Assembly: GCA_028534125.1 (NCBI GenBank)
Contig: CM052816.1
Coordinates: 19,594,001-19,658,000, forward strand
Direction: 5' to 3'
Source: Lama glama
Taxonomy: Eukaryota
Length of the DNA stretch: 64,000 nucleotides
Part shown: piece by piece, positions 5,137-8,100 of the stretch
Numbering within the stretch: the stretch's first letter is position 1
Layout: every line of letters begins with the position of its first letter
Translations under genes and position numbers: made by a program
The notes under the pieces: model-generated
What the model saw: the letters and a program-made list of their open reading frames with translations, nothing else
Databases searched by the model: none
What the model was told of the DNA's origin: nothing

Positions 5137-8100
5137 CTAACATGAAGAAAAAAAATAAAGACAAAAAGAAAACTAAAAATCAGTCACAACTCATTTTATG
5201 ACTACCAAAAACTTTAAAAAACTGTAAAGGGAACTAAAATGCCTGACTTAACCAGAGGGGTAAGTTAGGTATCTTTAAACAGTGAAAAGAAATTTTGATT
5301 TATAATATCTTAATCTAATGGCAAATACTTTCTGACAATGGGTACATGAGGCCCTTTATTTGTCAAACTCGTCTCTTGCATACCATCGTAGGGCCTGAAG
5401 AACCTGTAAAATTCAGAAAACAGCCCTCTCCAAAACACATCATAAAACTAAGACTGAGATGGAGCATCGAGCCACATCAGCCATTATCTGACAGCATCAC
5501 CTAGGAAAAAACATATTAGAGATTACAGCGTATGTGTGGAAAGCAAGTTCCAGTGCTAACTATTTCAGATGCAGAAAACCTTTCTTTACATTATTTTATG
5601 TAGTACATACCTACTTATATATAGTTAGAAGCTTCTAATGGGCATGTCAAAACAGTAAAAACAGAAGCTACTCATTATCATTAGGTAACTAACATGTTAC
5701 ACAAAAATTTTAAATACCAAAGGTATTACATATATACATTTTTCTATACAAAGGTACAAATCCAAGGTACAAATCCAATTTTACTAAGTGTTCCCACTGG
5801 TTTAAATAAATGCAACTGGCTTCTTAGCCAAGAAAAACTAAATACATACACAGGAAACCTTTTCTAAAGGATTAATATAAGCGTTTCTATCGATTGTTGA
5901 TTCAATCACCTGGCAAAAACATGTATAAAATAGTTATTAAATATAAACCAAAAGGATAGATAAGGGAAAAAGGTAAAATTAATCAAGATGAATATCAGGA
6001 GGAGACTTAATGGAGCATTGAGAAAAAACAAGGGATTATTTTATCAGCATTCAACCCAAAACTTTTCATATGCTGTACAAGCACAATGATTTATCAATTT
6101 CAATGTCACTTTACCAACTTCATGTAGAATTAGAATTAAATGTACACAGAAATCCAAGCAGAATGCTATTAGAAACATGCATTACTCATAGTTTTTAATA
6201 TTGTATTATATATATAAAATGAATACTGCAATGGAAACCTTTGAAAGCATTTTCTTCAAGAAACTGAAATGAGCCAAAATAAATGCTTTCCAATGTTTAA
6301 GTATTTCACATTAACATTTGCAGCCCCAATTAGTTTTGCAAGATTGGGAACAGCATTAAATTACCTACCTTTGATGGTTTAAGTCTCGGAAGCCCAGTTC
6401 TATAAATCTTGAAGGGCCTTTCTCCACAGAAGTTAAACAATGTCAACAGTTTAGTAACAGTTTTGATAGGGAATAATTTAACAAAGCACAATATCTGAGC
6501 TAAAAACATGCAATATTTACAAAAGATAAAATTTCTTAAAGCTGCAATATCTTAATTTATTCAGTATTGCAAGAAAATACTAGTTCCTGTGGAGAAGCTT
6601 AAACTGTACAACTGAAAAAAAAAAAAAGATAGCCCCCACCCTTTCAAAAGCAAAGCTAGGCCAAAATTGGATGCAGACTTCACTTCAAGGCTAAAAGAAT
6701 CAGATGAAGTACTGAGAAGAAATTTTAAATTAAATTGCAAAAATATTATGAACTCTTGCAACAATAAGCTTATTACAACACAAATTTTAAGATATTACAG
6801 CTTTAAGAAGAAATGTAGAAACCCTTTGGTGGTTTCTTGTATCTGCTTTGATTTAACAAAAATGTATTGAATTCAAAAAGGAAAAAAAAGAACTAAAAAA
6901 AATCCCTGACTTACCACTGTTAGCTGCTAACATGTCAATCATTCGACCAGGTGTGCAAACAATAATTTCAGCACCTCTTTTCAGCTCAGCAATCTAATAA
7001 AAAAAGATGAAATTTTATAGCTCATTTATCACTAATGCTTAAGCACAGATTATTGAAAACACTGTACAAGGTCCTGTACAGCTCCATAAGGTAGGACAGC
7101 AAGGTCTGATTAGAAGACATCAAAGTTCCCTGCTTAATTCTTCAAAAGACTGGAGTACTAATAAAGAAACAGGTAGCAGCAAATGACCACACGGTGCTGT
7201 AACTTTGAAACAAATGAAAACCAGAGATTTTTATCAATTTTAATGTGACAAGATCCCTTAAAACCAAGAAAGGAACATGAAAAAGCAGTAAATAAACCAA
7301 TTATATACATCAGTGTCTTTCAAATTGAGAGTTGTTTCCATTGGTGAATCATGAAATCAGTTAAGTCAAAACCTGCATTTTTAAAATGAAATAGACTGGA
7401 AAATACCAGGCTATGTTAGACATCATAAAACTTTGCTTGACTTCTATAGAAATAGAATGTGCATAAGTGTATTAGCTTATATTTTAAATGTATTTCTTAC
7501 TATAGGCTGTGGCCAAAAAAGTTGACAAAGGTAAACTTAGAAAACCAAGTTCAAATGCTTAAAATACCACTGGGATAACAACAGCAAATATTCCCAAAAT
7601 GTGTCTAGAATCTGACAAGACAACTCCTCAGAAAGGATTTTGTGGTTAAATAAGTTCAGAAAATGTCACTTAATTTATGCCTCTTTTCTAGCATCACAAT
7701 AAACATTAGGCTCATTAAAGACTAAAAAGTTCAGCAGGAAAGAAATCTATTTTAACTTTATATAATCCAACATTTCAAAAACTTTTTTGACCATAGAACT
7801 CATTTTTTTTTCCTTTTTCTAGTTTGAGAAAATATCTGATAACTATCACTCTTTAGAAGACACTTGGAGAAATGCCTTAGGAGAGTAAATGAACGTATGC
7901 TTAAATAATTCTTGCCAAAATCATTTACGAATGCAGATGAAACTTTGATATTAATGTATTCATTCATCACCACATTTTAAAGATGTCACTTAGAGAAAAT
8001 AAATGCTGATCTAGGAATCAGAAACCTAGGTTCTAGGACAAACAAAGTCCTACTAAGCCGAAGACTTTGGTCAACTTAACCTTTCTGAACATCTGTAAAA

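What the first reader, a model, noticed from the sequence alone, without database searches (positions are those of the whole stretch)
5384..5500. Candidate poison (NMD) exon with two alternative acceptors in DDX46 intron 12
Seen (minus strand): a strong acceptor CTCTAATATGTTTTTTTCCTAG| at 5500 with a branch-like CTAAT, a second acceptor CTGAATTTTACAG| at 5403, and a shared donor ATG|GTATGC at 5384. The 117-nt form joined to exon 12 reads G-D-A-V-R-STOP (TAA at 5486-5484). The 20-nt form shifts the frame and stops at TGA inside exon 13. Both would truncate the protein just before the DEAD motif, with many exon junctions downstream. Established: many splicing-factor genes (for example the SR proteins) self-regulate through poison exons coupled to NMD. 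Inference: DDX46 has such a feedback exon here. This intron also lacks recognisable repeats, unlike its neighbours.
Basis: partly seen in the sequence, partly recalled or inferred. Interest (0 to 1): 0.72.

Follow-up and report, generated by a model that had tools for sequence, protein, structure and literature searches.

The report
Known conserved poison exon in DDX46
A 117-base optional exon inside the gene for the splicing helicase DDX46 puts an early stop in the message; an exon of the same length is already catalogued in human and mouse as sending DDX46 messages to decay, so the exon itself is known, while control of it by DDX46 itself is untested.

Summary
The splice signals and stops are exactly as described. 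Their strength alone is unremarkable: 6 equally strong AG..GT pairs, this one included, lie in introns 1-12. Other species settle it. 16 database DDX46 isoforms end, after exon 12, in G-x-A-V-x-stop, the tail predicted here. They include human D6RJA6, other placentals and two marsupials. Published tables list a 117-nt NMD exon in human DDX46 (PMC7347940) and mouse Ddx46 (PMC11188260). In mouse, inclusion rises from 0.27 to 0.70 under cycloheximide, flanks are conserved (PhastCons 0.825), and the event tracks Ddx46 decline in neurons. The long form is therefore a real, already catalogued poison exon. The 20-nt form has no support: 0 of 249 proteins, no table row. The claim that the intron is distinctively repeat-free is not borne out. 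Autoregulation is plausible but untested; no paper on it turned up in 10 searches. No reads were laid, so use in this species is inferred. The scan earlier noted a poison splice site in diatom Prp5 (unchecked).

The parts
5384..5500 (-). 117-nt NMD-inducing cassette exon between exons 12 and 13 of DDX46
   Evidence: tail G-x-A-V-x-stop in 16 database isoforms; 117-nt NMD exon in human and mouse tables
5484..5486 (-). First in-frame stop (TAA), 100 nt upstream of the next junction
   Evidence: stop at the same position in all 16 isoforms while 3 variant tails occur
5448..5450 (-). Second in-frame stop in the exon
   Evidence: offset 50
5501..5528 (-). Acceptor of the long form: short pyrimidine tract, two candidate branch adenosines at 5516 (-16, CTCTAAT) and 5523 (-23, CTGTAAT), AG-free zone of about 55 nt
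   Evidence: branch use not tested
5376..5383 (-). Donor GTATGC, middling strength (6.1; real donors 3.1-10.4)
5404..5423 (-). Internal AG acceptor-like site (20-nt form); use unsupported
   Evidence: present; 0 of 249 proteins carry its tail; no such row
6915..6993 (-). DDX46 exon 12 (upstream flanking exon, phase-1 donor)
5054..5136 (-). DDX46 exon 13 (downstream flanking exon, encodes the DEAD motif)

Best explanation
This 117-nt stretch carries splice signals and in-frame stops, and is very likely the counterpart of the poison exon catalogued in human and mouse DDX46, which when included would end the helicase before its DEAD motif and send the message to nonsense-mediated decay. Shown here: signals, frame and stop (sequence); the same junction-plus-stop in annotated isoforms of placentals and marsupials. 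Shown in mouse by others: inclusion, NMD sensitivity, and a link to falling Ddx46 levels during neuronal differentiation. Inferred: use in this species; one-to-one identity with the tabulated exons (same gene, same length, same tail, no base-level alignment); that inclusion acts as a dial on DDX46 dose, set by how well early spliceosome factors accept its close-in branch point and short pyrimidine tract.
For:: predicted tail AANSG-DAVR-stop; a G-x-A-V-x-stop after an AG occurs once in the window's minus strand (this site) against 0.07 per shuffled 64 kb; of 249 proteins held, 123 have the AANS-type exon-12 end, 23 of these end within 30 aa, and 16 end G-x-A-V-x (12 GDAVR, 2 GGAVR, 1 GDAVK, 1 GDAVS). 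They are from human (D6RJA6, a UniRef entry for 14 simians), capuchin, mouse lemur, rabbit, squirrel, two bats, dog, lion, pig, peccary, cattle, yak, whales, Tasmanian devil and wombat. (PMC7347940 supplement): DDX46 chr5:134790106-134790222, EI_NMD, 117 nt; entry needs at least 3 junction read pairs and 3% PSI. (PMC11188260 supplements): Ddx46 chr13:55808166-55808282, 117 nt, NMD-stimulating cassette exon; PSI 0.70 CHX vs 0.27 DMSO (day 6), 0.36 vs 0.23 (day 24); gene up 0.94 and 0.60 log2 under CHX; marked valid in natural samples for CHX and nuclear/cytoplasmic tests; r = 0.73 with gene trend; PhastCons 0.825.
Against: No junction reads from this species or its relatives were obtained. All 16 truncated isoforms also lack exon 3, so they are probably projections of one human model: they show the genomic sequence, not independent transcripts. 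Projection can force tails (fish records end GEKAVR, GALRR), and a cat record ends GRYDAL. Splice-site strength is no better than 5 decoy pairs. Supplements of PMC3446288, PMC10123112 and PMC6547761 hold no DDX46 row. Mouse inclusion is listed at only 2 time points.
Confidence: 0.92

Rival explanations
1. The exon is real and is the sensor of a direct negative feedback loop: spare DDX46 on U2 snRNP promotes use of the weak, close-in branch point and so destroys its own message. This adds a mechanism to the best explanation and does not replace it.
For: DDX46 occupies the SF3B1 RNA path before the pyrimidine tract and is credited with branch-site proofreading (PMC9935549, passages). The acceptor has candidate branch points at -16 and -23 with a short tract. 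[quoted passage not shown]
Against: No DDX46 perturbation data seen. Searches for feedback or autoregulation returned nothing on this exon. In mouse the exon goes with developmental down-regulation, which the authors contrast with homeostatic feedback. Branch use was not mapped.
Confidence: 0.4
2. The exon has two working acceptors (117- and 20-nt forms).
For: The internal acceptor scores as well as the outer one (10.8 vs 10.8) and its product would also be an NMD target.
Against: 0 of 249 proteins carry its tail. The human table has one DDX46 row, 117 nt; both mouse tables give only the full 117 nt. No good branch candidate lies at a usual distance. 17 of 1079 intronic AGs score as well.
Confidence: 0.2
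3. The included form escapes decay in part and makes a 519-aa N-terminal DDX46 fragment that binds SF3B1 without a working ATPase.
For: Mouse PSI is 0.23-0.27 even without CHX. DDX46 grips SF3B1 with N-terminal sequences.
Against: The event is CHX-responsive and passes the nuclear/cytoplasmic test. The tail residues vary while the stop is fixed. No peptide evidence seen.
Confidence: 0.07
4. In this species it is an unused pseudo-exon.
For: Signals are no stronger than decoys; no reads laid.
Against: Intact acceptor, identical tail and identical 117-nt length compared with human and mouse.
Confidence: 0.05

Closest known systems
Human DDX46 NMD exon chr5:134790106-134790222 (hg38; PMC7347940 supplement) and truncated isoform D6RJA6
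   Same: Same gene, 117 nt, exon-inclusion NMD; D6RJA6 ends AANSGDAVR as predicted here
   Different: D6RJA6 also skips exon 3 (471 vs 519 aa); no base-level alignment was made
Mouse Ddx46 NMD-stimulating cassette exon chr13:55808166-55808282 (GRCm39; PMC11188260 supplements)
   Same: Same gene, 117 nt, conserved context, CHX-stabilised
   Different: Shown in mouse neural cells only; the main text never names Ddx46
Autoregulatory poison exons of splicing factors (SMNDC1, PMC11357089 passages; SR proteins, recalled)
   Same: Conserved stop-bearing cassette in a spliceosome gene, coupled to NMD
   Different: Feedback by the host protein is reported for those; not tested for DDX46. Conservation here was seen to marsupials only, not in birds or fish

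Membership tests
Conserved poison (NMD-inducing) cassette exon | Flanked by usable splice sites inside an intron | tested here: met
Conserved poison (NMD-inducing) cassette exon | Stop more than 50-55 nt upstream of a later junction (rule from established knowledge) | tested here: met
   TAA 100 nt before the next junction
Conserved poison (NMD-inducing) cassette exon | Acceptor and stop conserved across species | tested here: met
   16 isoforms, placentals and marsupials; indirect, through annotated proteins
Conserved poison (NMD-inducing) cassette exon | Spliced in, and stabilised by NMD inhibition | tested here: inconclusive
   No reads for this species; met for the 117-nt human and mouse exons in published tables
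Autoregulatory poison exon | Inclusion responds to the level of the host protein | not testable with these tools
   no data found
Poison exon with alternative acceptors | Second acceptor used in transcripts | tested here: inconclusive
   no sign; absence there is not proof
Structure-controlled poison exon (BRD2/BRD3 type, recalled) | Stable local or long-range pairing over the splice sites | tested here: not met
   5600-5340 folds worse than 200 of 200 shuffles (z +2.6); best duplex with the upstream intron is -18.4 kcal/mol, matched or beaten by 18 of 20 shuffles (downstream intron mostly not scanned)
Intronic C/D snoRNA or other Rfam RNA | Match to a family model | tested here: not met
   only hit is SNORD14 at E 3.6 on the other strand, elsewhere in the intron

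The most novel reading that the evidence does not exclude
DDX46/Prp5, the branch-site proofreader, reads its own dose through this exon: the tandem, close-in branch points (-16/-23) and short pyrimidine tract are a built-in U2-loading sensor, making the exon an endogenous reporter of proofreading and of SF3B1-hotspot effects. If the scan's unchecked diatom Prp5 note holds, unproductive splicing of this helicase would have arisen in two distant lineages.
Probability: 0.3. Interest if true: 0.55.

Novelty: already known. Interest (0 to 1): 0.22.

Why it matters
The exon is catalogued but apparently unstudied: it appears in supplementary tables and a database isoform, and I found no paper that discusses it. 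It is a ready handle for changing DDX46 dose (exon deletion or a blocking oligonucleotide should raise the mRNA; CHX raises it up to about 1.9-fold in mouse cells). It also allows a direct test of whether the U2 proofreading helicase regulates itself. As a discovery it is ordinary.

Tried and rejected
Read evidence: 24 runs were listed, all as assembled contigs, 20 holding about 0.55-0.70 of the words; none was laid, so they support nothing, including intron retention. Rfam: nothing. Own genome: single copy, no relatives held. RNA structure: rejected. C/D snoRNA, suggested by three TGATG copies in the exon: no Rfam match. Repeat-free intron as evidence: rejected. Bird and fish equivalents: none among the listed proteins; fish GEKAVR, GALRR and GE tails look like read-through or forced projections, so depth beyond marsupials is open. 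Papers: main-text passages of PMC12434867, PMC3446320, PMC13019295, PMC11610591, PMC6292215, PMC8980049 and PMC4402522 name DDX46 but not this exon; PMC11357089 does not name it. The PMC8091538 supplement lists 5 unannotated DDX46 events, none this exon. Supplements of PMC3446288, PMC10123112 and PMC6547761: 0 hits. Not held: PMC2447145, PMC3042160, PMC6962552 (also by DOI), PMC4371929; these may list or test the exon. bioRxiv supplements were closed. Earlier findings by place: none.

Full report
Observation. The minus strand shows the two acceptors and the donor at the stated positions. I mapped 13 exons with AG/GT ends; joined, they give 542 aa without a stop, and an exon 8 query returns DDX46 proteins at up to 100% identity. 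The candidate lies in intron 12. The 117-nt form ends the protein at 519 aa (AANSG-DAVR, TAA at 5486-5484), 100 nt before the next junction, with a second in-frame stop behind it. The 20-nt form shifts the frame and stops at 529 aa. Both lose the DEAD motif at residue 529.

Is it more than chance? Not from the signals alone. With rough weight matrices (frequencies recalled), 16 of 1079 intronic AGs and 33 of 1074 GTs in 18,911 nt score as well, and 6 pairs are at least as strong at both ends, the candidate included. The repeat remark does not single the intron out: 8 of 13 introns show no self-BLAST cover. The stretch is single-copy in the genome, has no Rfam match and folds worse than all 200 shuffles. 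Its best duplex with the upstream intron is within the shuffled range.

Conservation, read through proteins. Two searches listed 120 of 809 and 120 of 406 hits; cluster look-ups added members, 15 of 27 for the key cluster. Of the 249 proteins held, 123 have the AANS-type end of exon 12, 23 of these stop within 30 aa, and 16 end G-x-A-V-x: 12 GDAVR, 2 GGAVR, 1 GDAVK, 1 GDAVS. The other 7 are four canonical partials, one ending at the exon, one intron read-through and one cat record ending GRYDAL. The 16 span primates (human D6RJA6), glires, bats, carnivores, artiodactyls, whales and two marsupials. Varying residues with a fixed stop fit a non-coding exon whose acceptor and stop are kept (inference). 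Such a tail after an AG occurs once in the window's minus strand, at this site, against 0.07 per shuffled 64 kb. Caveat: all 16 also lack exon 3, so they probably descend from one human model projected onto each genome, and fish records show that projection can force a tail. No bird or fish record has the tail. None of the 249 has the short-form tail.

Transcript evidence, from papers. I obtained no reads for this species: the runs found were contigs of related organisms and none was laid. PMC7347940 (supplement row and passages seen) lists one DDX46 event, chr5:134790106-134790222, exon inclusion with NMD, 117 nt; entry needed at least 3 junction read pairs and 3% inclusion. This lies 4.6 kb behind the human acceptor at 134785464, whose tabulated sequence resembles the window's exon 11 acceptor. 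PMC11188260 (supplement rows and passages seen) lists Ddx46 chr13:55808166-55808282, 117 nt, NMD-stimulating. PSI is 0.70 under cycloheximide against 0.27 at day 6, and 0.36 against 0.23 at day 24; the gene rises 0.94 and 0.60 log2. The event is marked valid in natural cells, has PhastCons 0.825 and r = 0.73 with the gene's monotonic fall (tau -0.94), and no PTBP1 effect is listed. The main text never names Ddx46. Identity with the window's exon rests on gene, length, tail and rough position, not on a base alignment.

How it most likely works. Inclusion would add an early stop with many junctions behind it, and NMD would remove the message; skipping gives full-length helicase. The mouse data suggest that a large share of transcripts can take this route. 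What sets inclusion is unknown. The acceptor has two candidate branch adenosines, at -16 and -23, and a short pyrimidine tract. DDX46 holds the SF3B1 RNA path before the tract enters and is credited with branch-site proofreading (PMC9935549, passages). Feedback through U2 loading is therefore my preferred trigger (about 0.4), but it is inference; cross-regulation or a developmental cue fits the mouse pattern as well. The second acceptor is probably unused (0.2): it appears in neither table and has no good branch candidate at a usual distance.

Novelty. The exon is already in databases and supplementary tables. Ten full-text searches (listings seen, and passages of the papers named under Tried and rejected) found no paper that discusses it or tests DDX46 autoregulation. 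Four likely sources were not held, and three supplements gave no hit. The scan's earlier notes hold nothing on this place. One reports a poison splice site in diatom Prp5 (unchecked); another supplied the id of PMC11188260.

Verdict. A real, conserved, already catalogued poison exon (0.92). Interest 0.22.

Noticed in passing
window 6611-6369 (minus), intron 12: A stronger-scoring pseudo-exon pair (acceptor 16.0, donor 10.2; 243 nt) with in-frame stops lies in the same intron; no branch candidate within 70 nt, and no 243-nt DDX46 event in the tables seen.
   Followed up: partly
window 20979-20836 (exon 3): All 16 truncated database isoforms lack this in-frame 144-nt RS-rich exon, and some lack exon 4 too; whether skipping is coupled to poison-exon inclusion or reflects one cDNA is unknown.
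   Followed up: partly
window 17065-16930, 11797-11636, 8731-8597 (minus): Other AG..GT pairs as strong as the candidate, in introns 4, 7 and 10; PMC8091538 lists a conserved alternative donor in human intron 10 that may or may not correspond.
   Followed up: no
window 5499, 5479, 5442 (minus): Three TGATG copies in the 117-nt exon against none in 1414 nt of upstream intron; the exon is also richer in G+C (0.44 vs 0.30). Possibly a protein-binding element.
   Followed up: no
   Followed up: no
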